Below are positions 11,459 through 21,985 of a stretch of 24,000 nucleotides of DNA, in pieces. Origin of the DNA: Sphaerisporangium fuscum (lineage in GTDB: Bacteria > Actinomycetota > Actinomycetes > Streptosporangiales > Streptosporangiaceae); contig NZ_JAHDTF010000005.1 in NCBI RefSeq assembly GCF_018531465.1, forward strand, positions 262,574 through 286,573, in the 5' to 3' direction. A program made the position numbers and the translations under genes. The notes under the pieces are model-generated. The model had not been told where the DNA came from. It ran no database searches and worked only from the letters and a program-made list of their open reading frames with translations. The first letter of the stretch is position 1, and every line of letters begins with the position of its first letter.

Positions 11459-11626
11459 CCGGTCCCGCCCGGAACGGCAAAGGGAGCGGCACATCTCGAA
11501 CGCATATTCGAAGAATCGGCCGAGGGTGCGTGGAGTCCGTTGCGAACACGTCCGAGATGTTGATATTGCTTGCGCTAGCGAGCCCGCCCGAGGGATCTCA
11601 GATCCTTTTGCTGGGAGGTGGGTCGC

Positions 11627-11911
11627 GTGGCGAGGTCGAGACAGCGCAGGCTGGTCCGGGGGCTGGAGGACGCCTCCACGGTGGTCAGGGCCACGACCGG
11701 CCTGCTCCGGCAGACGTCGAGCCTGCTCCGCCAGCTCGTCATGATCGTGGGATGGCTGGTCCTGCTGGCCGGCTCGGTACGACTGCTGCTCACCCCTACC
11801 GCGACACTCTCCCCCGAACACTTCCTGACCCCCGGCGCCGGCGCCGCCGCCGTCGCCCAGGGCCTGCTCCGGATGCCCGCACGCAAAGGACGATCGACTT
11901 CGGATCATTGA
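11627..11911 (+). CDS. Small single-TM membrane protein, copy A (hypothetical)
   Basis: VARSRQRRLVRGLEDASTVVRATTGLLRQTSSLLRQLVMIVGWLVLLAGSVRLLLTPTATLSPEHFLTPGAGAAAVAQGLLRMPARKGRSTSDH. GC3 is very high in this frame only. GGGAGG at 11613..11618 lies 8 nt before GTG 11627. The palindrome GGATCTcAGATCC sits at 11593..11605 just upstream. Confidence 0.55.
   Translation: MARSRQRRLVRGLEDASTVVRATTGLLRQTSSLLRQLVMIVGWLVLLAGSVRLLLTPTATLSPEHFLTPGAGAAAVAQGLLRMPARKGRSTSDH
11659..11887 (+). repeat. Left copy of a roughly 230-bp direct repeat (pairs with 14155..14389)
   Basis: Hand alignment against 14155..14389 gives 4 substitutions plus one 6-bp indel (GCCGTC). The repeat covers the core of the small membrane-protein ORF. 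Confidence 0.9.
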
Positions 11912-12138
11912 TACCTACGACCCCGCCGGCCTGCCACGCCGATAGCTCCGGCCACTTGTTGAGCAAGATGACGGAACTTGGAGTTTATAACCGTTTTAAC
12001 GGAAATGACTTCGCCACCCATGCGACCGATATTGTTATATCGGACTTAACATTATCGCAGGAGGGCACATGCGGCCCCTCTCCATGCTTTGATCAAGAAC
12101 CTCGGCGATGAAAAAGTTTCAGCCGGTGAGTCGATGGG

Positions 12139-12831
12139 ATGATTCGAAGCATGAGCGGCGCCGTCGTCGATCTCCTGGAACGGCCGACCTACACGATGTC
12201 ACAGGTCGACCGGCTGATCGGTCTACCCTTGGGCACCGCGCGACGCTGGGTCGACGGATATTCCCGTAATGGCCGCACTTACGAGCCAGTCGTCCGGCAA
12301 AGCCGCACAGGCGACATGATGGCGACATGGGGCGAATTCGTGGAAGCCCGGCTGCTCGCCGAGTACCGCAACGCAGGCGTCCCCATGATCAACATGCGGC
12401 CGGCCATCACCAAGCTCAGAGCCGAGACCGGCGCCCGGTATCCCCTCGCACACCTGGCCAATTTCGTGACACCACACGGCAAAGAGCTTGTGTGGCGGGT
12501 GCAGGAGCAGGTGCGCCTGCAGGCGGAGCTTCTTCTCGTCATACCACGCAACGGGCAGTTGGTCATGGCCGAAGCCGTCGAGATCTTCGTCAATGCCGTG
12601 GAGTTCGACGACGACACCGTGGTGCGCATGCTTCCCGACCTCAGAACTCCGGAGGTCAAGATCGACCCACTGCGCGCCTTCGGCGAGCCCGCGGTCCGGT
12701 CGGTGCCCACCGAAGTGATCGCCGAGCAGGTTCGGGCGGGCGACTCCGAGGAATTGATCGCAGATCTCTACGAGCTGCCGCTGGAACAGGTGCGGCAAGC
12801 AGTTTTGTTCGAGAAGCTCCGCAGCGCCTGA
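12139..12831 (+). CDS. MerR-like HTH + DUF433 domain protein (antitoxin-like)
   Basis: The N-terminus YTMSQVDRLIGLPLGTARRWV is HTH-like. The C-terminus KIDPLRAFGEPAVRSVPTEVIAEQVRAGDSEELIADLYELPLEQVRQAVLFE fits the DUF433 pattern. GC3 is lower than in neighbouring genes. ATG 12151 is an alternative start. Confidence 0.7.
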   Translation: MIRSMSGAVVDLLERPTYTMSQVDRLIGLPLGTARRWVDGYSRNGRTYEPVVRQSRTGDMMATWGEFVEARLLAEYRNAGVPMINMRPAITKLRAETGARYPLAHLANFVTPHGKELVWRVQEQVRLQAELLLVIPRNGQLVMAEAVEIFVNAVEFDDDTVVRMLPDLRTPEVKIDPLRAFGEPAVRSVPTEVIAEQVRAGDSEELIADLYELPLEQVRQAVLFEKLRSA

Positions 12832-12846
12832 CCTACCCGGACCACC

Positions 12847-13275
12847 ATGCCCCCCATAGATCCGCGAGGTCTGCGCTTCTTCGTCGACGAGACCTCCCTC
12901 GGCGTCGGCCGCGCGCTTGCTCTCCTACGCCGGGACGTCATCCACACCAGCCATCCGCTGATCCCAGAGGTACCGCTCGGCACTTTGGACGACGAGTGGA
13001 TCCCCAAGGTCGCCGCCAGAGATCTCGTCGTCATCACACGAGACAAGCGCATCCGTACCAAGCACGCCAAGGCGATGCTCTACGCCGAGCACAAAGCGCG
13101 AGTCTTCTGGATCGCCGGCAAGAGAGATCTGTCCAACTGGGACACGATGTGCCTGCTCACCCGCCGATGGGACGACATCGAGCGCGAGATCAAGGAACAC
13201 GGCCCGGGACCGTGGTTCATGGCGATCAATGAGTCGAGGCTCAGTGAGATGTGCATACATGGAGATCGGCGCTAG
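12847..13275 (+). CDS. PIN-like (DUF5615 / Mut7-C-like) putative nuclease, toxin-like partner of the DUF433 protein
   Basis: LRFFVDETSLGVGRALALLRRDVIHTSHPLIPEVPLGTLDDEWIPKVAARDLVVITRDKRIR matches the DUF5615 layout: an acidic D/E near the N-terminus, D-x-E/W mid-region, and T-x-D after a hydrophobic strand. It lies 15 nt downstream of the DUF433 gene. Confidence 0.55.
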   Translation: MPPIDPRGLRFFVDETSLGVGRALALLRRDVIHTSHPLIPEVPLGTLDDEWIPKVAARDLVVITRDKRIRTKHAKAMLYAEHKARVFWIAGKRDLSNWDTMCLLTRRWDDIEREIKEHGPGPWFMAINESRLSEMCIHGDRR

Positions 13276-13315
13276 GACGGAGCCCTGGTGCTGCCCACCC
13301 AACGACGAACCCCCA

Positions 13316-13334
13316 CCCTTCCGCGGCGGAAGGG
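13316..13334. terminator. Short hairpin between convergent genes
   Basis: CCCTTCC gcggc GGAAGGG lies between the stop at 13273..13275 (+) and the stop at 13340..13342 (-). Confidence 0.4.
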
Positions 13335-13339
13335 GCGCG

Positions 13340-13561
13340 TCATCCGCCCGTGGCGTCCTCGGCCTCCCAGCGCAGCAGGTCGCCTGGCTGGCACTCGAGC
13401 ACCTCACAGAGGGCGGCGAGAGTCGTGAAGCGCACGGCCTTGGCGCGGCCGTTCTTGAGTACCGCCAGGTTGGCGGGCGTGATCCCTACGCGGTCCGCGA
13501 GTTCGCCCACGGACATCTTCCGTTTGGCCAGCATCACGTCGATGTCGACGGCGATCGGCAT
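13340..13561 (-). CDS. XRE/Cro-type HTH transcriptional regulator (YozG-like, 73 aa)
   Basis: MPIAVDIDVMLAKRKMSVGELADRVGITPANLAVLKNGRAKAVRFTTLAALCEVLECQPGDLLRWE is the classic short YozG-type HTH. Its ATG overlaps the upstream gene stop (TGATG at 13563..13559). Confidence 0.85.
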   Translation of the reverse strand: MPIAVDIDVMLAKRKMSVGELADRVGITPANLAVLKNGRAKAVRFTTLAALCEVLECQPGDLLRWEAEDATGG

Positions 13562-14052
13562 CAGATCACCTCGTCCAGCTCGGCCTGCATCTGCGCCGCT
13601 TCGGCGTCGCGCGCGACGGCCTGGGCGAGCAGCATCCGCAGCACGAGCACGATGAGCGCGACCCCCAGGATGGCCACGCCGATCCCGCCCATGATGACGG
13701 TGACGCCCGGGTCGTCCCGCTGGCCCGGCGCATTGAGGGCCGTGACCGCGAACCACACGAGCGCAGCCGCCACGATGGCGCCAATGATGACATCCACGTA
13801 CCGGAAGGCGGCGTGGGAGAACACGGTTCCGCGTCGCACCATCGTCACCAGCCGCCACACGCAGACCCCGATGACCTGGATCGTCCCGATACCCAGGATC
13901 GTGATCACGCGCAGCGAGGTCAGCGGGAGCGACCCGTCCTCCGGGTCGTTTCCGCTGATCAACGTCCACACCATCAATGCCTGTACGGACACGGTGCCGA
14001 CGAGCATCACCACGAGCACGGCGCGCAGCGCGCGCACTGTCAGCTTCCCCAT
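13561..14052 (-). CDS. DUF2975-family membrane protein (4 TM)
   Basis: MGKLTVRALRAVLVVMLVGTVSVQALMVW...FRYVDVIIGAIVAAALVWFAV...VIMGGIGVAILGVALIVLVLRMLLAQA. It has the usual operon partnership with a YozG-like HTH. GGAAGG is the SD before ATG 14052. Confidence 0.8.
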   Translation of the reverse strand: MGKLTVRALRAVLVVMLVGTVSVQALMVWTLISGNDPEDGSLPLTSLRVITILGIGTIQVIGVCVWRLVTMVRRGTVFSHAAFRYVDVIIGAIVAAALVWFAVTALNAPGQRDDPGVTVIMGGIGVAILGVALIVLVLRMLLAQAVARDAEAAQMQAELDEVI

Positions 14053-14063
14053 GGCCCACCCTT

Positions 14064-14101
14064 CCATCGATTTGCGATGGAAATCTATCGAATTTCGATA
14101 G
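14064..14101. promoter_or_regulatory. Two perfect palindromes upstream of the DUF2975/HTH operon (candidate operators)
   Basis: CCATCG atttg CGATGG at 14064..14080, and the 17-bp perfect palindrome CTATCGAA t TTCGATAG at 14085..14101. Both share a TCGA core. Confidence 0.5.
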
Positions 14102-14428
14102 GTGAAGCAAGAGCTGACCCGGAGGGGCGGGCCGCCCTGGCCGCAAGCAGCGCAGGGGCTGGAGGACGCCTCCACGGTGGTCAGGGCGACGACCGGCCTG
14201 CTCCGGCAGACGTCGAGCCTGCTCCGCCAGCTCGTCATGATCGTGGGATGGCTGGTCCTGCTGGCCGGCTCGGTACGACTGCTGCTCACCCCTCCCGCGA
14301 CACTCTCCCCCGAACACTTCCTGACCCCCGGCCCCGGCGCCGCCGCCGTCGCCGTCGCCCAGGGCCTCCTCCGGATGCCCGCACGCAAACAGAGACCCGA
14401 CGCGGTCAGTCCTCGCCCACCACGGTGA
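14102..14428 (+). CDS. Small single-TM membrane protein, copy B (duplicate of 11627..11911 with different N- and C-termini)
   Basis: VKQELTRRGGPPWPQAAQGLEDASTVVRATTGLLRQTSSLLRQLVMIVGWLVLLAGSVRLLLTPPATLSPEHFLTPGPGAAAVAVAQGLLRMPARKQRPDAVSPRPPR. There is no convincing SD before GTG 14102. The 3' end overlaps the convergent hydrolase gene by 23 nt. This copy may be a non-functional duplicate. Confidence 0.4.
   Translation: MKQELTRRGGPPWPQAAQGLEDASTVVRATTGLLRQTSSLLRQLVMIVGWLVLLAGSVRLLLTPPATLSPEHFLTPGPGAAAVAVAQGLLRMPARKQRPDAVSPRPPR
14155..14389 (+). repeat. Right copy of the roughly 230-bp direct repeat (pairs with 11659..11887)
   Basis: See the left copy. This copy is identical except for 4 substitutions and a 6-bp insertion. 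Confidence 0.9.
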
Positions 14429-15527
14429 GGTCGTCGCCCAGAGCCGCCGCGATCTCGGCCGCGCGGGAGTGGTCGCCCAGGCGGCGGGTCAGGTACGCGG
14501 CGCCGTGGCGATGCCGGCGCGACCACCAGGCGGCGGAGCCGCCGATGCCGCCCTTGGCGATCTTGCCATGGTCGCGGACGAAGCCCAGCGTCCACGTGAT
14601 CCGGGTGCCGAAGACCTCATCGAAGTCCGTGACCTGCGGCTCCAGCAGCTCAGCGTGCAGCTCCGGCCCGAGCAGCCGGCGTACGGGACCGTCCTCGGCG
14701 GTGAGCTCCGCGAAGAAGCGGGCCATGGCGGTGGCGGTGGCGTGCAGGTTGACCGCGCCGAAGACCGACTGCCGCCAGGCCCGGGAGTTGGCCCGCTCGA
14801 CGTCGAGCACGCCGCCAGGGATCTGCAGCCACGGGGCCGCGTGCAGCAGGCGCGGCCAAGCCGGATCGGCGTACTCCAGGTCGGCGACGCGGCCCAGCTC
14901 GTCGTCCGGCACTCCGAACCAGGCGTCCAGGCCCAGCGCGGGGCGCACCACCCCGTCGTACACCTCGTGCAACGTGGTGCCGGCCGCCGCGCGCAGGATG
15001 CCGTCGACGAGGTGGCCGTAGGTCAGCGCGTGCTCGCCGAGCGAGCTGCCGGGTGGGTACTCCGGAGCCGCCGCCACCAGGCTCTCGCGCAGCGCGGCGT
15101 CGTCCAGCAGGTCCACCTCCGCCGCCGCGACCGGGAAGCGGGGCTGGCCGGCCCGGTGGGTGAGCACCTGCCGCAGCGTGGTCGCCTCCTTGCCGTTGAG
15201 ACCGTACGCGGGCCAGTGGCGGGCGATCGGCTCGTCCAGCGTCAGTGCGCCATCGCGCACCGCCACCAGGGCGGCGAGCGTGACGAACGACTTCGAGAGC
15301 GAGTAGGGCTGGACCAGCGTGCCCGCCTGCCAGGGACGGGTCCGCGCCGCATCGGCCCACCCCGCGTCGAGCCGGACGACCTCGCGCTCGTCCTTCCACA
15401 CCGACACGCCCGCCCCGGTCTCCCTGCCCTCGTCCACCAGCTTCCGGAAGACCTCGCGTACCGGCTCGTACCCATCCGCGACGAACCCTTCGACCTTCAC
15501 CCACGCTCTCCCTTCGCCGGAAGCCAC
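14406..15527 (-). CDS. Serine hydrolase, beta-lactamase/transpeptidase fold (class C / EstB-like esterase family), cytoplasmic
   Basis: The SxxK motif is in QPYSLSKSFVTLAALVAV. There is no signal peptide. Typical family length is about 370 aa. The start is GTG 15527; an internal GTG (VKVEGF...) is an alternative. Confidence 0.85.
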   Translation of the reverse strand: MASGEGRAWVKVEGFVADGYEPVREVFRKLVDEGRETGAGVSVWKDEREVVRLDAGWADAARTRPWQAGTLVQPYSLSKSFVTLAALVAVRDGALTLDEPIARHWPAYGLNGKEATTLRQVLTHRAGQPRFPVAAAEVDLLDDAALRESLVAAAPEYPPGSSLGEHALTYGHLVDGILRAAAGTTLHEVYDGVVRPALGLDAWFGVPDDELGRVADLEYADPAWPRLLHAAPWLQIPGGVLDVERANSRAWRQSVFGAVNLHATATAMARFFAELTAEDGPVRRLLGPELHAELLEPQVTDFDEVFGTRITWTLGFVRDHGKIAKGGIGGSAAWWSRRHRHGAAYLTRRLGDHSRAAEIAAALGDDLTVVGED

Positions 15528-15575
15528 AATAGTACCGCTACGGGGTATGGGTAGTACCGGCGTGGCTATTGTGGC
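15523..15575. promoter_or_regulatory. 10-bp inverted repeat GCCACAATAG...CTATTGTGGC enclosing two TAGTACCG direct repeats
   Basis: The arms lie at 15523..15532 and 15566..15575. TAGTACCG occurs at 15530..15537 and 15552..15559. The left arm overlaps the hydrolase GTG start. The element sits in the divergent region with the nitroreductase gene. Confidence 0.4.
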
Positions 15576-15675
15576 GGTTGTGTCGTCACATCCTGAGCCC
15601 CTTCGCCAACAGCCCGTGTTCCGCGCTCATGGTGATCTTGACGGAGGCGCTCGGACCGGTCCACCGGCGTCAGGT

Positions 15676-16245
15676 ATGAACACCCCGCAGCTCACATCGG
15701 CGCTACAGGGGCGTTTCAGTCCCCTGCGCTTCGATCCGAACCACCAGCTGTCCGACGCGGACGTCGTGACCGTGCTGGAGGCAGCCAGGTGGGCCCCCTC
15801 TGCCGGGAACGCTCAGCCCTGGTCGTTCCATGTGCGCCGGCGAGGAGAGGAGGGGCACGATCAACTTGTCGAACACCTCGCCGCGAGCTCACGCCGATGG
15901 GCACCCGCCGCCAGCGCGCTGGTCGTCAACATGGCTCGTCGCGAAGTCGACGACAGCGGCATGACCTACTCCGAGTTCGCCGACTACGACCTCGGCCAGG
16001 CGGTGGCCCACATGACTGTGCAGGCCCACGCGATGGGCCTGGCCTGCCGGCAGTTCCGCGCCTTCGATCTCGAAGGACTGCACGACACGCTCGGAGTCAG
16101 GCCCGGTTGGCACATCCTCACGATGACGGCCATCGGAGTTCCGCCCCGAGGCGACACGACACCGCCTGCACGAGAGCGCCGGAGCATCGTGGACCTACGA
16201 ACCGCAGGAGTGTCGTCTCCACCACACAGGCGTCTACAGGGGTGA
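15676..16245 (+). CDS. Nitroreductase-family protein
   Basis: RFSPLRFDPNHQLSDADVVTVLEAARWAPSAGNAQPWSFHV is the typical nitroreductase N-terminal signature. ATG 15676 was chosen because the track start (15319) is antisense to the neighbouring gene. Confidence 0.85.
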   Translation: MNTPQLTSALQGRFSPLRFDPNHQLSDADVVTVLEAARWAPSAGNAQPWSFHVRRRGEEGHDQLVEHLAASSRRWAPAASALVVNMARREVDDSGMTYSEFADYDLGQAVAHMTVQAHAMGLACRQFRAFDLEGLHDTLGVRPGWHILTMTAIGVPPRGDTTPPARERRSIVDLRTAGVSSPPHRRLQG

Positions 16246-16376
16246 GCAGGACGGGTCTGCGGTGAACACGCCCGATCCGCCCTCGGGGCCGGAGTCCTCC
16301 ACCGCGATCAAGTCCTCCGGCCCTGCCACCGCCGAGGCCGGCAGCGGGTTTCGTGGATCGGTCGCCGCGGGACGGC

Positions 16377-16405
16377 GGGTTCCTCCGCTGCCGGCGGAGG
16401 AACCC
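16377..16405. terminator. Perfect 12-bp GC-rich hairpin between convergent genes
   Basis: GGGTTCCTCCGC tgccg GCGGAGGAACCC lies between the nitroreductase stop (16245) and the DUF397 stop (16427). Confidence 0.5.
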
Positions 16406-16426
16406 CCGAATGCGCGGGGACGCGGA

Positions 16427-16639
16427 TCAGAAGTCGAACTCGCCCTTCTTGGCGCCGTCGATGAACGCACTCCACACACTCGCGCTCAACACGAACGGCT
16501 CCTTCTCCGGAGCCTCGGTATCCCTCACCCCCACCCGCCCACCGGCCAGCGGAGCCACCTCCAGGCAGTTCCCCTGGTCCGACCCACTCTTGGTCGCCTT
16601 GCGCCAGGCAGCCGTCCTCAGCTCATCGTTCAGGTCCAC
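16427..16639 (-). CDS. DUF397 (BldB-like) small protein
   Basis: VDLNDELRTAAWRKATKSGSDQGNCLEVAPLAGGRVGVRDTEAPEKEPFVLSASVWSAFIDGAKKGEFDF has the WRKS..S....CVEVA...V.VRD...P signature. Its GTG start overlaps the upstream XRE gene end by 10 nt. Confidence 0.85.
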   Translation of the reverse strand: MDLNDELRTAAWRKATKSGSDQGNCLEVAPLAGGRVGVRDTEAPEKEPFVLSASVWSAFIDGAKKGEFDF

Positions 16640-17448
16640 TGCTTCTCCGCCTCTCTGATCAACTCGATGGATGCATGCTGGGGCTGCGCCTCGGCACGCA
16701 GTCTGTCGTATCGGGCATGGATAGCTTCGACGTCTTCTGGACGATTCGAGACATGACCATGGATAGCGGATTGGATATACACCGTATCTGGGCTTCCAGG
16801 AAGCTGCGCGATCACGAAGCCGCCAAGGATGCCCGTGGTCACCCCTGCCGCCATTGGGACTACCTGGATGCCGATGCGGGGCGAATCTACAGCTTGCAGG
16901 AGGCTTGCGATCTGGCGTCGCATGATCTCCTTACTACCTATCAAGCGGTATAGAACGCCTTCGTCTAGCAGCGCGCGCAGAAGTGGCGGATTGGCCCGAG
17001 AGAATATGCCCTGTCGCTCCATCCGGGCGGCGACCGCCTTCTCCACCTGTTCGTCGGTAATGCCAGGTTCTCCCCGGATAACCGCTCTTGCTTACTCCTC
17101 CGTTTGCAGCAGGCCAGGTACCACAAGGGGTTCCCAGGTATGAAGCGTATGGGCCTCTCGTTCAATACCGAGCCACCCGCGAAACCAGTGAGGGCTCACC
17201 TCCCCGATCAATTGGTGCCACAGGTTGACGAGCTCTCCCCCTGCGCCCAGGGCGTCGTCGCAGCGGTGGACCAAGGCAGGACTGGGGGTTCGCTGTCCTC
17301 GCTCGATGAAACCCAGGAGGCTACGACTGAAGCGGGCGGCCTTGGCCAACTGCTCTTGGGTCAAATTCGCCCTTCGTCGGTATCTGCGAAGTTCGCCCCC
17401 AAAGAGGTCCAGCGAGCCCGCTGACGGTTTTTTCTGATAAGAGACCAT
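16630..17448 (-). pseudogene. WhiJ-like XRE HTH + DUF5753 regulator interrupted by an in-frame TAA (17094..17092)
   Basis: The N-terminal part, ...LTQEQLAKAARFSRSLLGFIERGQRTPS...VVPGLLQTEE, stops at TAA. The same frame continues ARAVIRGEPGITDEQVEKAVAARMERQ...DSPRIGIQVVP...HASIELIREAEKQWT. The family consensus is PGLLQTxxYARA, so the stop sits where Tyr (TAC/TAT) is expected. GC3 is lower than in the flanking genes. Confidence 0.75.
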
Positions 17449-18013
17449 CTTCTTCGTCCCGTCCGACCAGTGATGCTACAGCGGCACAGGGATGACACAG
17501 GTCGCCACGAACTGTCCCCAGAGTGTGCCCCGATTTGCGATGCAAAAAGTATCGGACCCAAGGCACCCTGTGAAGGGCTGCGGAATACACGCAGATCAAG
17601 CGCCCATCACTTATCCATCTCTCCACTCATAGCCAAGCGCGGCTCACATAGCCACCAGATATATCCGGATAAATGATGCGCGATATGTCCAAGAAAGAGG
17701 CTTCAGTATGCGCCTTTAGGCGAATGATCGCCGTACCGGGCCGATAGAGAGTTGTCGCTAATCGGTAAGCCCCACATGTCACCATCCGCCGAACGACGGC
17801 ACGGGATTGACCTGGCGACGACCCGCCACAGCGGTACCGAGCAAGGGCCCGCACAACGAGCGGGTCAGGGCGACCCGCTGACCGGCCGGTAGCCGTTGGC
17901 CGTGGCCGGGCGGTCGAGCGGCGGCAGCCGTCGGGTGGGCCACCACATATCGCGATCTGGACCCAACTCGACCCATCGAGGAGGTGGCGGCGTGATGAGA
18001 AAGGAGCGTTCAA

Positions 18014-18778
18014 GTGCACGAACACGAGGCCGGCACCGCCGCGGAACGGCGGCTGCTCACGTCCGTGCTCGGCAGTGGGACAGGGCCGAGCGGGCAGCCG
18101 CTCGGCAGTTGGACCAGATGGAGCCGGTCGCCCGTCCCCGAACCCCTGCTCGTCCAGGCGCGCACCGCCGCCCAGCTACACGAACTGATAAGTGCGGCCG
18201 AACAAATCATGCCGTACCGCCCCTCCCCGGCTCCGCCCCCGCACCGACCGATCGACCTGCCCGATGCGACACCGGCCGACCCCATTGTGCCCCCGCCCCC
18301 GCGTCGACCGGCCGACCTGCTGCAACCGGTCATCCATCCGACCGTCCCACCACCCACCCCACCCCATGGAGCACCGATGCCTGAGACACCGGACGGCGGT
18401 CTACGTACCGTCTGCTGGGACCTGCCCGGCGACCTGTCGATGATCGGTAAGGCGCGCGGAATGGTGAAAGAGATTCTCGCCGCCTGGGCCTTGCCTGATC
18501 ATCTGGCCGACGACGTGGTTCTCGCTGTCGGGGAACTGCTCGCCAACGCCATGACCTACGGGAAGCCACCGGTGAGGCTGTCACTGTGGCAGCGCGGAGG
18601 TGAGCTGTGTGTCCGTGTCTCCGACCACGGCCCGGAGCAGCCGCGTCATCTGGACCTCGGCATCGAGGCCGTACACGGCCGAGGCCTGGCCATCGTGGCC
18701 GCCCTCGCCCACGAACACGGCATCACGCCGCTTCCTGACGGGCCGGGGAAGACGGTCTGGGCGCTGTGGCGCGTCTAG
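18014..18778 (+). CDS. ATP-binding protein of the anti-sigma-factor/HATPase_c_2 type (AbaA-cluster-like) with a roughly 120-aa Pro-rich N-terminal extension
   Basis: The C-terminus CWDLPGDLSMIGKARGMVKEILAAWALPDHLADDVVLAVGELLANAMTYGKPPVRLSLWQRGGELCVRVSDHGP...GRGLAIVAALAHEHGI is typical of this type. A strong AAGGAG at 18001..18006 lies 7 nt before GTG 18014, and GC3 is high throughout the extension. ATG 18377 would give the usual roughly 133-aa form. Confidence 0.75.
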   Translation: MHEHEAGTAAERRLLTSVLGSGTGPSGQPLGSWTRWSRSPVPEPLLVQARTAAQLHELISAAEQIMPYRPSPAPPPHRPIDLPDATPADPIVPPPPRRPADLLQPVIHPTVPPPTPPHGAPMPETPDGGLRTVCWDLPGDLSMIGKARGMVKEILAAWALPDHLADDVVLAVGELLANAMTYGKPPVRLSLWQRGGELCVRVSDHGPEQPRHLDLGIEAVHGRGLAIVAALAHEHGITPLPDGPGKTVWALWRV

Positions 18779-18885
18779 GGAGCACCGCGAGGTCCACCGG
18801 TTGCCCGCCGTACGGCGGCGCCGGCTTCGCCGCACTTCCTCCCGCCGCCCCGGCGCCGAGGGAAAGCACCAGACACAGCGCCGGA

Positions 18886-18921
18886 GGAAGGACGCCGGCC
18901 GGCTCAGGCCGGCGTCCTTCC
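18886..18921. terminator. Perfect 15-bp stem hairpin downstream of the ATP-binding protein gene
   Basis: GGAAGGACGCCGGCC ggctca GGCCGGCGTCCTTCC. There is no U-tract on the + strand. Confidence 0.5.
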
Positions 18922-18961
18922 CCCGGAAATCCGGTTGGCCCGCCACCTAGGTAAACGGCCA

Positions 18962-19088
18962 GACAGTCGGCCCGGGACCGGCGTGAACGGGTGGGTGGTT
19001 GGCTCGGGGGCTTCTGGAGCAGGCGGACGGTTGGCCTCGGGCCGGCGTGAACGGGTGGGTGGTTGGCTCGGGGGGTTCGGGAGCGGAT
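18962..19088. repeat. Two tandem copies of a roughly 64-bp unit with a 33-bp identical core, upstream of the E1-like gene
   Basis: The core CCGGCGTGAACGGGTGGGTGGTTGGCTCGGGGG occurs at 18978..19010 and 19042..19074. Flanking bases are partly conserved (gtcggcc-cggga vs gttggcctcggg; cttctggagcagg vs ttcgggagcgg). A 64-bp period is not a multiple of 3, so this is not a coding repeat. Confidence 0.85.
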
Positions 19089-19150
19089 AGAACTGAGCGG
19101 TAATCACATTCTGGTCATCTCGGTCGGTCACGTGAAGGAGAAGCGGCTCC

Positions 19151-20239
19151 ATGCGATTACCTCGGGTGAAGGCGGAACACCGTCCGCACCGGTATGGCGA
19201 CGGGGTGATACGCATCGGAGGCGAGATCTACGGGCTCGCCGCCGAAATCAGTGATCCGAATGGATGGGCGTGGGCCGCGCTCGACCTGATGGACGGAACA
19301 CGCGAGACGCACGACATCATCGCCATTCTGTGCGATTCGCTGCCCGGGATTTCCCGCGGGCAGGCGCAGGTCGTCGTGGAGACCCTTGTGGCGTCCGGAT
19401 ACGTCGAAAGCGGCGACGACGCCGTACCTCCCGGGCTCCACGAGGACGAGGTGGAGAGGTACAGCCGCAACCGCGCCTTCTTCCGGCGGGCCGATCTCAC
19501 TCCGGGCGAGCACGGGTGGGAGGCACAGCTGCGGCTGAAGTCCGCGCGGGTGCTCGTCCTCGGTCTGGGCGGCACGGGAGGGCACGCGGTCTGGGCGCTG
19601 GCCGCCGCCGGAGTCGGAGCGCTGCACTGCGTCGATCCCGACGTCGTGGAGTTGTCCAACCTGAGCCGCCAGGTGCTGTACGACGAGGAGGACGTGGGCA
19701 GGCCGAAGGTCGAGGCCGCGCTGGACCGGCTCCGGCGGACGAACTCGGCGATCGAGGTGACCGGCGAGCGGCGCCGGATCTGCTCGCGGGACGACCTGGC
19801 CGCGCTGGTCGGCGGCTTCGACGTGCTCGCGCTCTGCGCCGACGAGCCGCGCGGCACCGACGGCGTCCGTATCTGGGCCGACCAGGTGTGCGCGGCGGCC
19901 GGCATTCCCTGGGTGGGCGGCGGCTACAACGGGCCTCTGGTCACCGTGGGCGTCTTCGGGCCCGGTGGCACCTGCTACGAGTGCCTGAGCGCGGCAGAGC
20001 AGGCCCGTCTGCGGCCCGGCACACCCGTGGACCTGGGAGGGCCGGGGGCGCTGGCCACCACTGCCGGGATATCGGGCCAGCTCACCGCGCACGCGGTGAT
20101 CGCGCTCCTCACCGGCGTGCCGCGCCTGACCCCCGGCTACGTCACCGGGGTCAACCTGATCGCGCCCGAGCACCACGTGTACGTACGCCACCCACCGCGC
20201 CCCGGCTGCCCCACCTGCGGGCCGGGCGAGAGGTCCTGA
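19151..20239 (+). CDS. E1-like adenylyltransferase (ThiF/MoeB/MccB superfamily) with N-terminal PqqD/RRE-like peptide-binding domain, 362 aa
   Basis: E1 core motifs are ERYSRNRAFF, the Gly-rich loop VLGLGGTGG, VDPDVVELSNLSRQ, GRPKV and LALCADE, plus two CxxC pairs (CYEC at aa 275-278, CPTC at aa 353-356). N-terminal aa 1-90 reads ...GDGVIRIGGEIYGLAAEISDPNGWAWAALDLMDGTRETHDIIAILCDSLPGISRGQAQVVVETLVASGYVE, which is RRE/PqqD-like. AAGGAG at 19135..19140 lies upstream of ATG 19151. Confidence 0.85.
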   Translation: MRLPRVKAEHRPHRYGDGVIRIGGEIYGLAAEISDPNGWAWAALDLMDGTRETHDIIAILCDSLPGISRGQAQVVVETLVASGYVESGDDAVPPGLHEDEVERYSRNRAFFRRADLTPGEHGWEAQLRLKSARVLVLGLGGTGGHAVWALAAAGVGALHCVDPDVVELSNLSRQVLYDEEDVGRPKVEAALDRLRRTNSAIEVTGERRRICSRDDLAALVGGFDVLALCADEPRGTDGVRIWADQVCAAAGIPWVGGGYNGPLVTVGVFGPGGTCYECLSAAEQARLRPGTPVDLGGPGALATTAGISGQLTAHAVIALLTGVPRLTPGYVTGVNLIAPEHHVYVRHPPRPGCPTCGPGERS

Positions 20240-20389
20240 CACCCGGCGGGCGGCCGGACCGTCGAGATCTTGTGGGGGAACGTTCACGTCTCGACCCGCC
20301 CTCGACGTGCGATGACAGGTTCCTTGACCCTGGGTTGTCATTGCATGGATCATCCAATACGTCCTTTCCCCTCCGCAGAAAGGCACGAC

Positions 20390-20497
20390 ATGGAAGAGCC
20401 GAAGTACGACGACGAGCCGGCGCCGGTCGTAGAGATCAGCATTCGGCTTCTGGACCGGGCCGAGACCACCGCGGTCAGCGGTTCCATCGGTAATTGA
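20390..20497 (+). CDS. 35-aa candidate precursor peptide MEEPKYDDEPAPVVEISIRLLDRAETTAVSGSIGN (C-terminal Asn)
   Basis: AGAAAGG at 20377..20383 lies 6 nt before ATG 20390. GC3 rises from about 50% in the preceding in-frame codons to about 80% within this ORF. A 12-13-bp terminator-like hairpin starts 9 nt after the stop. The ORF sits 150 nt downstream of the RRE-E1 gene on the same strand. Confidence 0.5.
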   Translation: MEEPKYDDEPAPVVEISIRLLDRAETTAVSGSIGN

Positions 20498-20505
20498 AAG
20501 CCGTG

Positions 20506-20533
20506 GCGGGCGGGCCCCTCGGGGCTCGCCCGC
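20506..20533 (+). terminator. GC-rich hairpin immediately after the small ORF
   Basis: GCGGGCGGGCCCC tc GGGGCTCGCCCGC has one G-U pair, and the effective loop is cctcgg-like. Confidence 0.5.
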
Positions 20534-20545
20534 TCGACCGTTCCC

Positions 20546-20584
20546 GGAGGCCGGATGGCCCGGATCGAGGTCCGGGCCACCTCC
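20546..20584 (-). terminator. Hairpin downstream of the minus-strand serine hydrolase gene
   Basis: The 9-bp stem TGGCCCGGA tcgagg TCCGGGCCA is extended by GGAGG/CCTCC across a 5-nt bulge. It lies 15 nt beyond the stop at 20599..20601. Confidence 0.4.
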
Positions 20585-20598
20585 CGTGGAGCGCGGCG

Positions 20599-21804
20599 TC
20601 AGGAGGTGAAGGCGGCCAGGCCGATGGTCTGGAGAAGGGCGGAGTCGCCCTTGGTGGTGGAGTTGACCGAGGCGACGATGCGGCGCTGGAGGTCGCGGGT
20701 GGCGAACATCCCGGTGCTGTAGCCGTAACGGCTGCCCGTCTTTCCGTAGATGGTGGCGCCGCCGGTGAGCTTCATGACGGTCATGCCCATGGTGTAGGCG
20801 GCCGGCTTGTCGTTCCCGGGGTCGTCGTCTCCGTCGTACATGACCACGCCATCCCGGACGGTGAACATCTTCTCCAGTTGGGCGGGAGGGAGGAGGCGGC
20901 CCCGGAAGAGGGCGGTCATGAAGCGGTCCAGGTCGTCAGTGGTCGAGATCATCTCACCGGCGGCCCAGGTGATGCTCTGGCTCATCTCCGTCACGTCCAC
21001 CAGTTCGGTCTTCCCGTCCTCGCCCCTGACGGCCATGTACCCCTTGGCGTGCGGCCCGGGGATGCGGATGCCGTCGCCGGGCAGGGTGGTGTGCTTCAGG
21101 CCGAGCGGGCGGACGACCCGCTCGCGCACCACGTCCTCGTACGACCTGCCGGTGATCTTCTCGATGAGCATGCCGAGCAGGATGTAGTTGGTGTTCAGGT
21201 AGTGCTGCTTGGTACCGGGCGTGAACTCCATCGGGTTCTTCGCGACGCCCGCCATCCACTGCTCCGGCGTCCACTTGTCGTAGCGGTGGTCGAGGATCCA
21301 CTTGTCGTCGTCGGGGAAGGTCGGGGCGGGCAGGCCACTGGTGTGGTCGAGGAGCTGCCCGACCGTGACGGGCGGGAAGGCGGCGGGCAGCAGGCCGGGG
21401 AGGTACTCCTGGACGGTGCCCTCCAGGTCGACCTTCTTCTCGGCGACCAGCTGGAGGACGACGGTGGCGGTGAAGACCTTGGTCACGCTGCCGATCCGGA
21501 ACCTGGCGCCGTCCGGCACCGGCCGCCCGGTCTTCAGGTCGCCGACACCCGACTTGCCGGTCCAGGAACCGGCGGTGCCGCGCACCTGGACGAGGGCGCC
21601 GGTCGTCTGCGCGTTCGGGAGACCGGCGATGGAGGCGCACATCGCCTCGGCGTTCAGCGGAGGGAGCGAGGTCGCGCCGACGGCGCTCGTGGCCGCCGAG
21701 CACACGGGCCTCGGCGCCGGCGTGGCGGACGCCGCCAGTGCGGGAGAGAGGGACCCCGCCACCACGGTGGCGGCCAGGGCGAGGGTCACGACCGGCTTGT
21801 ACAT
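20599..21804 (-). CDS. Secreted serine hydrolase, beta-lactamase fold (S12 D-alanyl-D-alanine carboxypeptidase / R61-like)
   Basis: The signal peptide is MYKPVVTLALAATVVAGSLSPALAASA. The SxxK motif is in FRIGSVTKVFTATVVLQLV, and the YxN motif is in HYLNTNYILLG. GAGGAG lies 5 nt before ATG 21804; the track start (21897) is upstream of the SD. Confidence 0.85.
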   Translation of the reverse strand: MYKPVVTLALAATVVAGSLSPALAASATPAPRPVCSAATSAVGATSLPPLNAEAMCASIAGLPNAQTTGALVQVRGTAGSWTGKSGVGDLKTGRPVPDGARFRIGSVTKVFTATVVLQLVAEKKVDLEGTVQEYLPGLLPAAFPPVTVGQLLDHTSGLPAPTFPDDDKWILDHRYDKWTPEQWMAGVAKNPMEFTPGTKQHYLNTNYILLGMLIEKITGRSYEDVVRERVVRPLGLKHTTLPGDGIRIPGPHAKGYMAVRGEDGKTELVDVTEMSQSITWAAGEMISTTDDLDRFMTALFRGRLLPPAQLEKMFTVRDGVVMYDGDDDPGNDKPAAYTMGMTVMKLTGGATIYGKTGSRYGYSTGMFATRDLQRRIVASVNSTTKGDSALLQTIGLAAFTS

Positions 21805-21814
21805 ATCTGCTCCT

Positions 21815-21843
21815 CGATGGGATCTTCGTCGGTGATCCCATCG
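21815..21843 (-). promoter_or_regulatory. 10-bp perfect inverted repeat abutting the SD of the S12 hydrolase gene
   Basis: CGATGGGATC ttcgtcggt GATCCCATCG on the + strand. On the mRNA strand the 3' arm ends directly at the GAGGAG SD. Confidence 0.35.
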
Positions 21844-21985
21844 TTGCTTCGGCCGCCCTCGCGGCGGATCGCCTGTGCGAGCGGTCTTCCGACTCACCCG
21901 GCGGAGGGATCCGGCGGCCGACGGCCTCGCGCCACTCCCCCGGAAGGACGAGGCCCGGACCCGTGCGTATCGGCGGCTTCGATGG

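What the first reader, a model, noticed from the sequence alone, without database searches (positions are those of the whole stretch)
20390..20497. The short ORF behaves like a real leader-core precursor peptide gene
Seen in sequence:
- AGAAAGG sits 6 nt upstream of the ATG.
- In-frame codons upstream of the ATG (20312-20389) have about 50% GC3, against about 80% inside the ORF.
- An acidic, proline-containing N-terminal part (MEEPKYDDEPAPVVEISIRLLDRAE) is followed by a small-residue C-terminal part (TTAVSGSIGN).
- A strong hairpin starts 9 nt after the stop.

Inference:
- The amphipathic VVEISIRLLDRAE stretch could be a leader helix or strand recognised by the RRE.
- The Ser/Thr/Gly-rich tail could be the core.
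- Such a gene is too short for standard gene callers and would normally be left unannotated.
Basis: partly seen in the sequence, partly recalled or inferred. Interest (0 to 1): 0.7.

Follow-up and report, generated by a model that had tools for sequence, protein, structure and literature searches.

The report
Precursor peptide gene beside ThiF-like enzyme
The 35-codon ORF is a real, conserved gene that most likely encodes the substrate peptide of the neighbouring MccB/PaaA-type ThiF enzyme, and it belongs to a widespread actinomycete peptide family for which I found no paper or named protein family.

Summary
All four sequence observations hold: the Shine-Dalgarno-like site, the GC3 step, the peptide sequence and the hairpin. 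The decisive evidence is comparative. Of 80 informative loci that encode a homologue of the adjacent ThiF gene (19151-20239), 79 carry an intact 35-46 codon ORF next to it. Each ORF has a start codon, an SD-like site and the motif I-x-I-R-x-L-D-K-I-E-T-T, followed by a variable tail of 7-11 residues. The invariant Arg uses six codons, and variation at the conserved residues is three-periodic. The enzyme model matches MccB and PaaA over its full length, with intact adenylation residues.

The tails follow a rule anchored at the C-terminus. Ser or Cys sits at position -6 (Ser30 here). In the Streptomyces forms, Lys sits at -5 instead. I infer that the enzyme adenylates the C-terminal carboxylate and closes a small ring. 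This is untested.

A terminal Asn is not conserved across the family, which argues against microcin C chemistry as the family rule.

No paper, Pfam model or NCBIfam model describes the family. Expression and modification remain unproven.

The parts
19151..20239 (+). MccB/PaaA-type ThiF-like adenylyltransferase, 362 aa. It has an N-terminal RRE-like peptide-binding domain (about residues 1-95) and a C-terminal ThiF adenylation domain.
   Evidence: Pfam ThiF, E = 1.7e-43. By sequence against solved structures: PaaA 5ff5 matches residues 4-204 (E = 7e-25) and MccB 3h5n matches residues 99-280 (E = 7e-24). The AF2 model has pLDDT 92. Foldseek gives full-length matches to MccB (E = 6e-26, TM 0.72-0.77) and PaaA. 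R173, K186, D231 and the four zinc-site Cys are invariant in 54 homologues.
20308..20345 (.). Inverted repeat TGCGATGACA / TGTCATTGCA that brackets the -35-like hexamer. It is a candidate operator.
   Evidence: Repeat I2, 10 nt arms, 90% complementary. Its function was not tested.
20324..20353 (+). Promoter-like site TTGACC - 18 nt - GATCAT, 37 nt upstream of the ATG.
   Evidence: It is the only sigma-70-like match in 18700-20700; shuffled sequence gives a mean of 0.0 matches. This is a consensus match only.
20377..20383 (+). Shine-Dalgarno-like AGAAAGG, 6 nt before the ATG.
   Evidence: Read directly from the sequence. SD-like matches of at least 4 nt sit upstream of the chosen start in all 86 family peptide genes, though the start was chosen partly by that score.
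20390..20497 (+). Precursor peptide gene: 35 codons plus the stop.
   Evidence: An intact homologous ORF lies next to the ThiF homologue in 79 of 80 informative loci. The exact sequence is in the NCBI protein set.
20435..20470 (+). Conserved leader-type motif ISIRLLDRAETT (residues 16-27). The family consensus is I-x-I-R-x-L-D-K-I-E-T-T.
   Evidence: Arg and Leu are invariant in 63 distinct tails. Arg is encoded by 6 different codons and Leu by 4. At the six conserved residues, entropy by codon position is 0.36 / 0.06 / 1.01 bits.
20471..20494 (+). Variable core-like tail AVSGSIGN (residues 28-35). It includes Ser30 (20477-20479), at position -6 from the C-terminus, and the terminal Asn35.
   Evidence: Ser or Cys is at -6 in 56 of 72 ETT-type tails among the 50%-identity representatives; 0 of 10,000 core shuffles reach that count. 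Tail classes follow the clades of the ThiF tree.
20506..20533 (+). GC-rich hairpin 9 nt after the stop, a likely transcription terminator. The next gene is convergent.
   Evidence: Free energy -33 kcal/mol, z = -3.4. Hairpins of unrelated sequence follow about 47% of family peptide genes at z < -1.5, including between the peptide gene and ThiF in Streptomyces.

Best explanation
ORF 20390-20497 is a translated gene. It most likely encodes the precursor (substrate) peptide of the ThiF-like enzyme encoded 150 nt upstream.

Proposed mechanism:
1. The peptide gene probably has its own promoter, and transcription ends at the hairpin.
2. The conserved segment ISIRLLDRAETT docks on the enzyme's N-terminal RRE-like domain.
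3. The 8-residue tail AVSGSIGN reaches the adenylation site.
4. The enzyme uses ATP to adenylate a carboxylate, most likely the C-terminal one on Asn35.
5. A side chain within the peptide attacks the acyl-adenylate and closes a ring. The conserved candidate is Ser30, at -6 from the end. The product would be a six-residue C-terminal macrolactone. In relatives it would be a thiolactone where Cys replaces Ser, or a five-residue lactam in the Streptomyces forms with Lys at -5.
6. The leader would then be removed after E-T-T. About half of the related loci encode a membrane HExxH protease for this step. The window encodes none.

What is shown: the gene is conserved as a protein, it is linked to a MccB/PaaA-type enzyme, that enzyme has an intact active site, and the tails obey a rule anchored at the C-terminus.

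What is inferred: binding, the site of adenylation, ring closure, cleavage, and any biological role.

My confidence is about 0.85 that this is a real gene and the enzyme's cognate peptide. It is about 0.35 for the specific ring chemistry. The single confidence number given (0.75) refers to the gene-and-cognate-substrate claim together with carboxylate adenylation by the enzyme, not to the specific ring.
For: Gene reality:
- 79 of 80 informative ThiF loci, from Streptosporangiaceae, Nonomuraea, Streptomyces, Plantactinospora and other genera, hold an intact 35-46 codon ORF beside ThiF, on the same strand.
- The invariant Arg is encoded by CGC, CGG, AGG, AGA, CGT and CGA. The invariant Leu uses 4 codons.
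- Entropy at the conserved residues, by codon position, is 0.36 / 0.06 / 1.01 bits.
- The clear indels inside the ORF are in-frame, for example a 30-nt insertion in L002. The upstream intergenic DNA is poorly conserved.
- The profile finds 93 representatives among 1.84 billion proteins. Nearly all are 30-50 aa and match through to their C-terminus.

Enzyme:
- See for the domain, structure and conservation evidence.
- R173, K186 and D231 align with MoeB R73, K86 and D130. They have the same spacing as the EnfB residues R167, K180 and D225 reported as essential (PMC12250964).

Linkage:
- The peptide gene stays adjacent to ThiF even though its side switches: upstream in Streptomyces and Planobispora, downstream elsewhere.
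- None of the window's other neighbours recurs with ThiF beyond 0-2 of 80 loci.
- ThiF clades match tail classes.

Chemistry clue:
- Ser or Cys is at -6 in 56 of 72 ETT-type tails, against 44 of 72 for the best position counted from the motif. Lys is at -5 in 20 of 20 ETI-type tails.
- Known ThiF-like RiPP enzymes adenylate a peptide carboxylate that is then captured by a nucleophile within the peptide: a backbone amide nitrogen for EnfB, a Cys thiol for GrcB, a Trp indole nitrogen for IndF, and the Asn side-chain amide for MccB.
- In relatives, the membrane HExxH protein weakly matches the daptide intramembrane metalloprotease model (E = 1e-7, below the curated cutoff).
Against: - There are no transcript, ribosome-profiling or mass-spectrometry data for this or any family member.
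- Whole-ORF pN/pS is only moderately below 1: pooled 0.60, range 0.17-1.0. The N-terminal half is weakly constrained.
- The window lacks a protease, an exporter and the DUF6879 gene that accompany many relatives.
- The -6 rule fails in about 20% of ETT-type tails, for example GLNQSEA and GDSGGNGGN.
- The sequences are phylogenetically related, so the counts are not independent events.
- The hairpin has no T-tract.
Confidence: 0.75

Rival explanations
1. Microcin C-type chemistry. The enzyme adenylates the C-terminal Asn35, which cyclises to a succinimide. A second ATP then gives a peptidyl-AMP with an N-P bond. The product would be a Trojan-horse aspartyl-tRNA synthetase inhibitor.
For: - The peptide ends in Gly-Asn. 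Asn is the last residue in 39 of 63 distinct family tails.
- The best structural matches of the enzyme model are MccB crystal structures.
Against: - The last residue is Ser, Thr, Arg, Ala, Gln or Gly in sister clades of the same enzyme family. AFSQGNST sits next to VCSNSTGN in the tree. A family-wide mechanism therefore cannot depend on a terminal Asn.
- No homologues of MccC, MccD, MccE or MccF were seen in the window.
- The precursor has a long conserved leader that MccA lacks.
- The gene order is reversed.
Confidence: 0.12
2. Pantocin-type chemistry on the conserved Glu. The enzyme adenylates the side chain of the near-invariant Glu25 in E-T-T and forms a small ring there. The variable tail would then be a follower sequence rather than the core.
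For: - PaaA is the best RiPP-enzyme match by sequence and is the only solved chain whose match includes the N-terminal domain (residues 4-204, E = 7e-25).
- Pfam PaaA-like_N is hit weakly in a relative (25.3 bits, just under the 27-bit cutoff) and is listed in the precomputed Pfam annotation of several relatives.
- Glu is present at this position in 60 of 63 tails.
- ThiF-like enzymes can act on Glu side chains, as PaaA does (PMC12150305).
Against: - There is no Glu-Glu-Asn triplet.
- This model does not explain why Ser/Cys at -6, or Lys at -5, keeps a fixed distance from the C-terminus while its distance from the Glu varies from 5 to 8 residues.
- No PaaB-like oxygenase is present.
Confidence: 0.1
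3. A real small protein that is not the enzyme's substrate. Examples would be a regulator or partner subunit of ThiF, or a C-terminally activated tag or sulfur carrier in the manner of ThiS, MoaD or Pup.
For: - ThiF-family enzymes classically activate the C-terminus of small proteins.
- The gene pair is conserved without other biosynthetic genes in the window's clade.
Against: - At 35-46 aa the peptide is too short for a beta-grasp fold, and it has no C-terminal Gly-Gly.
- The C-terminal residues are hypervariable, which is the opposite of what a carrier or tag shows.
- The enzyme carries the MccB/PaaA-type peptide-binding N-domain, which MoeB and ThiF lack. MoeB and ThiF match only the C-terminal domain.
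Confidence: 0.04
4. Not a gene. The ORF is a chance reading frame in GC-rich DNA, and the conserved element is only the terminator or 3' UTR of the ThiF gene.
For: - Chance ORFs are common here: ten ORFs of at least 20 aa overlap 450 bp.
- The hairpin is strong.
Against: - Conservation is at the amino-acid level, with synonymous codon turnover.
- Hairpin sequences are not conserved between loci.
- In Streptomyces the ORF lies upstream of ThiF.
- There is no Rfam match.
Confidence: 0.02

Closest known systems
Microcin C7 system (MccA heptapeptide and MccB), Escherichia coli
   Same: - A two-domain enzyme: a peptide-binding N-domain plus a ThiF adenylation domain. MccB is the best structural match (TM 0.72-0.77).
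- A short ribosomal peptide whose C-terminus enters the adenylation site.
- The window's peptide ends in Asn.
- A hairpin follows the precursor gene.
   Different: - MccA is 7 aa with no leader/core split; here a conserved 12-residue motif precedes a variable tail.
- The terminal Asn is not conserved in this family (39 of 63 tails).
- No mccC, mccD, mccE or mccF homologues were seen.
- The peptide gene is downstream of the enzyme gene and has its own promoter-like site.
- The host is an actinomycete.
Pantocin A system (PaaP and PaaA), Pantoea agglomerans
   Same: - The precursor is about 30 aa and has a recognition sequence.
- The N-terminal domain is homologous by sequence (5ff5, residues 4-204, E = 7e-25).
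- Pfam PaaA-like_N appears in relatives.
   Different: - PaaA modifies an internal Glu-Glu-Asn, and that triplet is absent here.
- There are no PaaB or PaaC genes.
- Conservation here points to the C-terminal six residues.
Firmicute ThiF-like RiPP enzymes that cyclise a peptide C-terminal region: EnfB (enterofaecin imide), GrcB (thiolactone) and IndF (indolylamide)
   Same: - An RRE-ThiF fusion and a short precursor with a leader motif and a C-terminal core. EnfA's leader motif is (V/I)RKA; here it is I-x-I-R-x-L.
- The enzyme adenylates a carboxylate, which is then captured within the peptide (PMC12250964; PMC12150305).
- This is the mechanism I propose here.
   Different: - A different phylum, and an unrelated core sequence.
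- The proposed nucleophile is Ser, Cys or Lys at a fixed offset from the C-terminus.
- There are no radical SAM partners.
- The accessory genes in relatives are an HExxH membrane protease and DUF6879.
Staphylococcal autoinducing peptides (AgrD processed by AgrB)
   Same: This is an analogy of product geometry only. The nucleophile (Cys, or Ser in some species) sits at a fixed offset from the C-terminal carbonyl and closes a small thiolactone or lactone ring. This comparison rests on my own knowledge.
   Different: - The ring is made by the membrane protease AgrB through acyl transfer, not by ATP-dependent adenylation.
- There is no sequence relationship.
- A signalling role is speculative here.

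Membership tests
ThiF-like-adenylyltransferase RiPP system (precursor plus RRE-ThiF enzyme) | A short ORF adjacent to, and co-oriented with, a ThiF enzyme that carries an N-terminal peptide-binding (RRE-type) domain | tested here: met
   The peptide gene starts 150 nt after the ThiF stop, on the same strand. The enzyme matches MccB and PaaA over its full length.
ThiF-like-adenylyltransferase RiPP system (precursor plus RRE-ThiF enzyme) | A conserved recognition (leader) segment and a variable core among homologous precursors | tested here: met
   The motif I-x-I-R-x-L-D-K-I-E-T-T is conserved. There are 63 distinct motif-plus-tail sequences among the loci, and 91 distinct tails once database hits are added.
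ThiF-like-adenylyltransferase RiPP system (precursor plus RRE-ThiF enzyme) | Intact adenylation residues (Arg, Lys and Asp of MoeB/MccB/EnfB) and the zinc Cys4 site | tested here: met
   R173, K186, D231, C275, C278, C353 and C356 are invariant in 54 homologues. The first three align with MoeB R73, K86 and D130.
ThiF-like-adenylyltransferase RiPP system (precursor plus RRE-ThiF enzyme) | The enzyme modifies the peptide in an ATP-dependent reaction | not testable with these tools
   This needs co-expression or an in vitro assay followed by mass spectrometry.
ThiF-like-adenylyltransferase RiPP system (precursor plus RRE-ThiF enzyme) | A leader peptidase and/or exporter in the cluster | tested here: not met
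   None is present in the 24-kb window. A membrane HExxH protein is present in 37 of 80 related loci.
Microcin C-like peptidyl-nucleotide | An obligatory C-terminal Asn in the precursor | tested here: inconclusive
   The window's peptide ends in Asn. Across the family only 39 of 63 tails do, and non-Asn clades are interleaved with Asn clades.
Microcin C-like peptidyl-nucleotide | Accompanying mccC (efflux), mccD/mccE (aminopropylation, immunity) or mccF (peptidase) genes | tested here: not met
   The Pfam and NCBIfam scans of the ORFs I tested around the pair (roughly 10.5-24 kb of the window) show none. The convergent beta-lactamase-family gene recurs in only 2 of 80 loci.
Pantocin A-like | A Glu-Glu-Asn core triplet in the precursor | tested here: not met
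   The peptide has EE only at residues 2-3, not followed by Asn. The conserved block contains a single Glu.
Pantocin A-like | A PaaA-type N-terminal domain | tested here: met
   Residues 4-204 align to PaaA 8-205, E = 7e-25. A close relative gives a sub-threshold hit to PF21475 (25.3 bits against a 27-bit cutoff), and the family is listed in the precomputed Pfam annotation of several relatives.
ThiS/MoaD-type sulfur carrier or ubiquitin-like tag | A beta-grasp protein of about 65-100 aa with a conserved C-terminal Gly-Gly | tested here: not met
   The peptides are 35-46 aa, have no Gly-Gly, and their C-terminal residues vary.
Any named protein or RNA family for the ORF itself | A match to a Pfam, NCBIfam or Rfam model | tested here: not met
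   NCBIfam gives no hit for the peptide or for 34 homologues. No Pfam domain is recorded for the 113 homologue clusters. Rfam gives no match.

The most novel reading that the evidence does not exclude
These peptides may be a new class of actinomycete cyclic peptide signals. A ThiF-like enzyme, rather than an AgrB-type protease, would close a five- or six-residue C-terminal lactone, thiolactone or lactam ring, giving a product with autoinducing-peptide-like geometry.

Three observations fit a diversified pheromone system rather than an antibiotic:
- The tails are hypervariable and track the enzyme clades.
- Some genomes carry several paralogous loci.
- In Streptomyces the pair is flanked by Opp/Dpp-type peptide importer genes and, in about half of the eight loci, a SARP-type regulator.
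Probability: 0.2. Interest if true: 0.8.

Novelty: new variant of a known kind. Interest (0 to 1): 0.62.

Why it matters
RiPP pathways built on ThiF-like enzymes are a small but growing group. The reviews I read cover microcin C, pantocin A, GRC, enterofaecin and the indolylamide peptide. All come from Proteobacteria or Firmicutes.

This locus belongs to a family found in many actinomycete genera. I found no paper and no Pfam or NCBIfam model for it.

The rule anchored at the C-terminus (Ser or Cys at -6, or Lys at -5) makes a concrete chemical prediction that a single co-expression and mass-spectrometry experiment can test. If the prediction holds, it adds a new ring-forming reaction to ThiF-like enzymes and a compact two-gene route to small cyclic peptides. 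It may also add a new type of signalling peptide in antibiotic-producing bacteria.

For genome annotation, it gives a sequence motif that turns many "hypothetical 40-aa proteins" into recognisable precursor genes.

Tried and rejected
Searches that could not run or returned nothing:
I re-ran it with a 45-aa first row.
- Pfam, NCBIfam and Rfam have no family for the peptide or its RNA.
- Gene-position look-ups for the peptide (P0234), ThiF (P0001) and the S. fuscum DUF6879 protein (P0317) found no record, so I could not see NCBI's gene calls in context.
- Five literature searches, including the motif string 'LDKIET' and 'DUF6879', found nothing on the actinomycete family.

Analyses that gave weak answers:
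- Whole-ORF dN/dS was a weaker test than hoped: pooled 0.60, and about 1 in two groups. I relied instead on site-specific codon turnover and entropy by codon position.
- The consensus terminator scan finds nothing because the hairpin has no T-tract.
- The fold of the intergenic region is not significant, z = -1.25.

Ideas considered and rejected:
- A larger cluster that includes the nitroreductase (15319-16245, a possible SagB-like dehydrogenase), the whiJ-like genes or the HATPase gene. None of these recurs next to ThiF in the 80 loci, and I saw no YcaO homologue among the ORFs I scanned.
- The convergent beta-lactamase-family gene as an MccF-like immunity gene. It belongs to a different protein family and recurs in only 2 of 80 loci.
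- The longer 75-aa ORF starting at TTG 20270. Conservation starts only around the ATG.

I did not try to model the enzyme-peptide complex, because the structure tool takes a single chain and only unaltered window or database sequences.

Full report
**Source and observation.**
The window comes from Sphaerisporangium fuscum or a near-identical strain: the ThiF protein is 100% identical to an NCBI entry from that species.
- The ORF runs from ATG 20390 to TGA 20497 and encodes MEEPKYDDEPAPVVEISIRLLDRAETTAVSGSIGN.
- AGAAAGG lies at 20377-20383, 6 nt before the ATG.
- GC3 is 28/35 inside the ORF and 13/26 in the in-frame codons upstream.
- A 13-pair hairpin at 20506-20533 starts 9 nt after the stop. 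Its free energy is -33 kcal/mol, z = -3.4.

On their own these features are weak evidence. Ten ORFs of at least 20 aa overlap this 450-bp stretch, and the GC3 excess has p of about 0.02.

**Is it a gene?**
I aligned homologues of the upstream ThiF protein and used the alignment to scan one genome per species. The scan returned 164 related stretches, and the best 80 were kept.

A motif scan, an SD-aware choice of start codon and an HMM check gave the following:
- 79 of 80 informative loci carry an intact short ORF beside ThiF, on the same strand.
- One locus is cut off 35 nt after ThiF, and one (L025) has no such ORF.
- The ORFs are 35-46 codons long at the ATG or GTG start supported by the alignment. 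The automatic start picker extended four of them (L038, L070, L071, L080) to 50-72 codons.
- An SD-like match of at least 4 nt lies upstream of each chosen start, although the start was picked partly by that score.
- They share the block I-x-I-R-x-L-D-K-I-E-T-T.

The conservation is at the protein level.
- The invariant Arg is written with six different codons and the invariant Leu with four.
- At the six best-conserved residues, nucleotide entropy by codon position is 0.36, 0.06 and 1.01 bits.
- In an alignment with the closest relatives, the clear indels inside the ORF are in-frame, and the DNA upstream of the ATG is poorly conserved.

Whole-ORF pN/pS is only moderately low (pooled 0.60), because the N-terminal half drifts freely. 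A profile of the family finds 93 representatives among 1.84 billion proteins. Nearly all are 30-50 aa long and are matched through to their last residue.

**The partner enzyme.**
Gene 19151-20239 is a ThiF-family protein.
- By sequence it matches PaaA from residue 4 to 204 and MccB from 99 to 280.
- Its AF2 model (pLDDT 92) matches MccB crystal structures over the full length (E = 6e-26, TM 0.72-0.77), then PaaA. MoeB and ThiF cover only the C-terminal domain.
- The N-terminal domain has three strands followed by three helices. From general knowledge, that is the usual RRE layout.
- R173, K186, D231 and four Cys are invariant in 54 homologues.
- R173, K186 and D231 align with MoeB R73, K86 and D130. 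Their spacing matches the essential residues R167, K180 and D225 of EnfB (PMC12250964).

The enzyme therefore looks catalytically competent and has a peptide-binding domain.

**Anatomy of the peptide family.**
After the conserved block comes a tail of 7-11 residues that differs between clades. Examples are AVSGSIGN here, TSSNSVGN, AFSQGNST, VCSNSTGN, ADSSGNSN, TWTPSHGNSN, and QNKAVSR in Streptomyces. Tail classes follow the clades of the ThiF tree.

The tails obey a rule counted from the C-terminus.
- Among 50%-identity representatives, 56 of 72 ETT-type tails have Ser or Cys at -6. No core shuffle out of 10,000 reaches that count.
- The best position counted from the motif reaches only 44 of 72.
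- All 20 ETI-type (Streptomyces) tails have Lys at -5.
- Ser and Cys interchange at -6 in otherwise similar tails, for example NTYSGNSNS and TTYCGNSNS.
- In the window this residue is Ser30.
- The last residue is Asn in 39 of 63 distinct tails, and otherwise Ser, Arg, Thr, Ala, Gln or Gly.

**Context.**
Only the gene pair is conserved.
- The window's other genes recur next to ThiF in 0-2 of 80 loci. These are a whiJ-like HTH/DUF397/HATPase set, a nitroreductase, two beta-lactamase-family genes and a helicase.
- The closest relatives have unrelated neighbours.
- About 37-38 of 80 loci add a membrane HExxH protein of about 400 aa and a DUF6879 protein. The HExxH protein weakly resembles Pfam M50 and the daptide intramembrane metalloprotease model.
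- Neither gene is in the window. S. fuscum does have a DUF6879 gene on another contig.
- In Streptomyces the peptide gene lies upstream of ThiF. The pair sits beside Opp/Dpp-type importer genes in seven of the eight Streptomyces-type loci and, in four of them, a SARP-type regulator.
- Strong hairpins of unrelated sequence follow about 47% of the peptide genes, including between the peptide gene and ThiF in Streptomyces.
- A promoter-like site (20324-20353), bracketed by a 10-nt inverted repeat, lies between ThiF and the peptide gene.

**How it most likely works.**
- Shown: the ORF is a conserved coding gene tied to an enzyme of the MccB/PaaA type.
- Inferred: the conserved block binds the N-terminal domain, and the enzyme adenylates a carboxylate of the tail.

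The known ThiF-like RiPP enzymes all activate a peptide carboxylate that a nucleophile within the peptide then captures. The only residue held at a fixed distance from the C-terminus is a nucleophile. I therefore favour closure of a six-residue ring between Ser30 and the C-terminal carboxylate. The equivalents would be a thiolactone with Cys and a five-residue lactam with Lys. Cleavage after E-T-T by the HExxH protease, where that gene is present, is a further guess.

**Rivals.**
- Microcin C chemistry fits the window's terminal Asn and the MccB-like fold. It does not fit sister clades that end in other residues, nor the absence of mcc accessory genes.
- Pantocin-like chemistry on the near-invariant Glu25 fits the PaaA similarity. 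It does not fit the missing Glu-Glu-Asn triplet or the rule anchored at the C-terminus.
- A carrier or tag role is contradicted by the peptide's size, the lack of Gly-Gly and the variable C-terminus.
- A non-coding terminator element is contradicted by the codon evidence and by the gene's position upstream of ThiF in Streptomyces.

**Comparison with the literature.**
Two 2025 reviews and the IndF paper list five ThiF-dependent RiPP types. None mentions Streptomyces, actinomycetes or this motif. Five full-text searches found nothing on this family. The library is incomplete, so a description elsewhere cannot be excluded.

This claim does not hold. The exact peptide is in NCBI's protein set, and 113 homologue clusters were found, named "hypothetical protein" where a source names them at all.

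**Limits.**
- There are no expression or chemical data.
- The counts come from related sequences and are not independent events.
- The ring chemistry is a prediction, not a result.

Noticed in passing
window 20308-20353: A 10-nt inverted repeat (TGCGATGACA / TGTCATTGCA) brackets the -35-like TTGACC of the only promoter-like site between ThiF and the peptide gene. It may be an operator for a regulator of the peptide gene.
   Followed up: partly
window 16427-18778: This stretch holds a whiJ/abaA-like gene set: DUF397 (16427-16639, -), an HTH_31/DUF5753 regulator (-) and an HATPase_c_2 protein (18014-18778, +). The regulator is split into two ORFs (17092-17448 and 16630-17046), so it is probably frameshifted or a pseudogene. 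The set is not conserved next to ThiF in other genomes.
   Followed up: partly
window 19151-19207: NCBI's protein for the ThiF gene (P0001, 344 aa) starts at Val19. The first 18 residues (MRLPRVKxEH...) are conserved in homologues and form the first strand of the N-terminal domain. The annotated start is therefore probably too far downstream.
   Followed up: yes
L057, L058, L065, L071, L074, L076, L077, L079, L080 (for example L074 6329-9070 and L076 1690-3300): In the Streptomyces-type loci the peptide gene lies upstream of ThiF, and the 7-residue tail always has Lys at -5. Seven of the eight Streptomyces-type loci whose flanks were annotated have Opp/Dpp-type ABC importer genes beside the pair, in varying arrangements, and four have an AfsR/SARP-type regulator.
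   Followed up: partly
L004 4050-5261; L007 5681-6895 and 7693-8451: Two accessory genes recur in about 37 of 80 loci. One is a membrane HExxH protein with a weak match to the daptide intramembrane metalloprotease model (E = 1e-7). The other is DUF6879. The DUF6879 AF2 model is confident (pLDDT 93) but gives only a weak phospholipase-D-like fold match (E = 5e-4, TM 0.42), and the family has no invariant His.
   Followed up: partly
L007, L008, L009, L014, L018, L031, L033, L066: In these loci one ThiF gene is accompanied by two different precursor genes. Their cores are of the AFSQGNST type and the VCSNSTGN type. The second precursor gene is followed by a second DUF6879 copy.
   Followed up: no
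L018, L025, L041 (Microbispora rosea ATCC 12950); L006 and L007; L004 and L017: Single genomes hold two or three paralogous ThiF loci with different tails. L025 is the only complete locus without a detectable peptide gene.
   Followed up: partly
window 11500-18000, including 12139-13275: This stretch has lower GC (0.61-0.68) than the rest of the window (about 0.70-0.77). It holds an HTH_66/DUF433 gene followed by a PIN_10 gene, which looks like a toxin-antitoxin pair. The stretch may be an accessory or acquired region.
   Followed up: no
window 20556-20579: A second, perfect 9-bp hairpin (TGGCCCGGA / TCCGGGCCA) lies 20 nt beyond the stop of the convergent beta-lactamase-family gene (20599-21897, -). 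It is probably that gene's terminator.
   Followed up: no
window 20360-20387: In the minimum-energy fold of the intergenic RNA, the Shine-Dalgarno-like AGAAAGG pairs with an upstream CCUUUC. That pairing could mask the ribosome-binding site. The fold is not better than shuffled sequence (z = -1.25).
   Followed up: no
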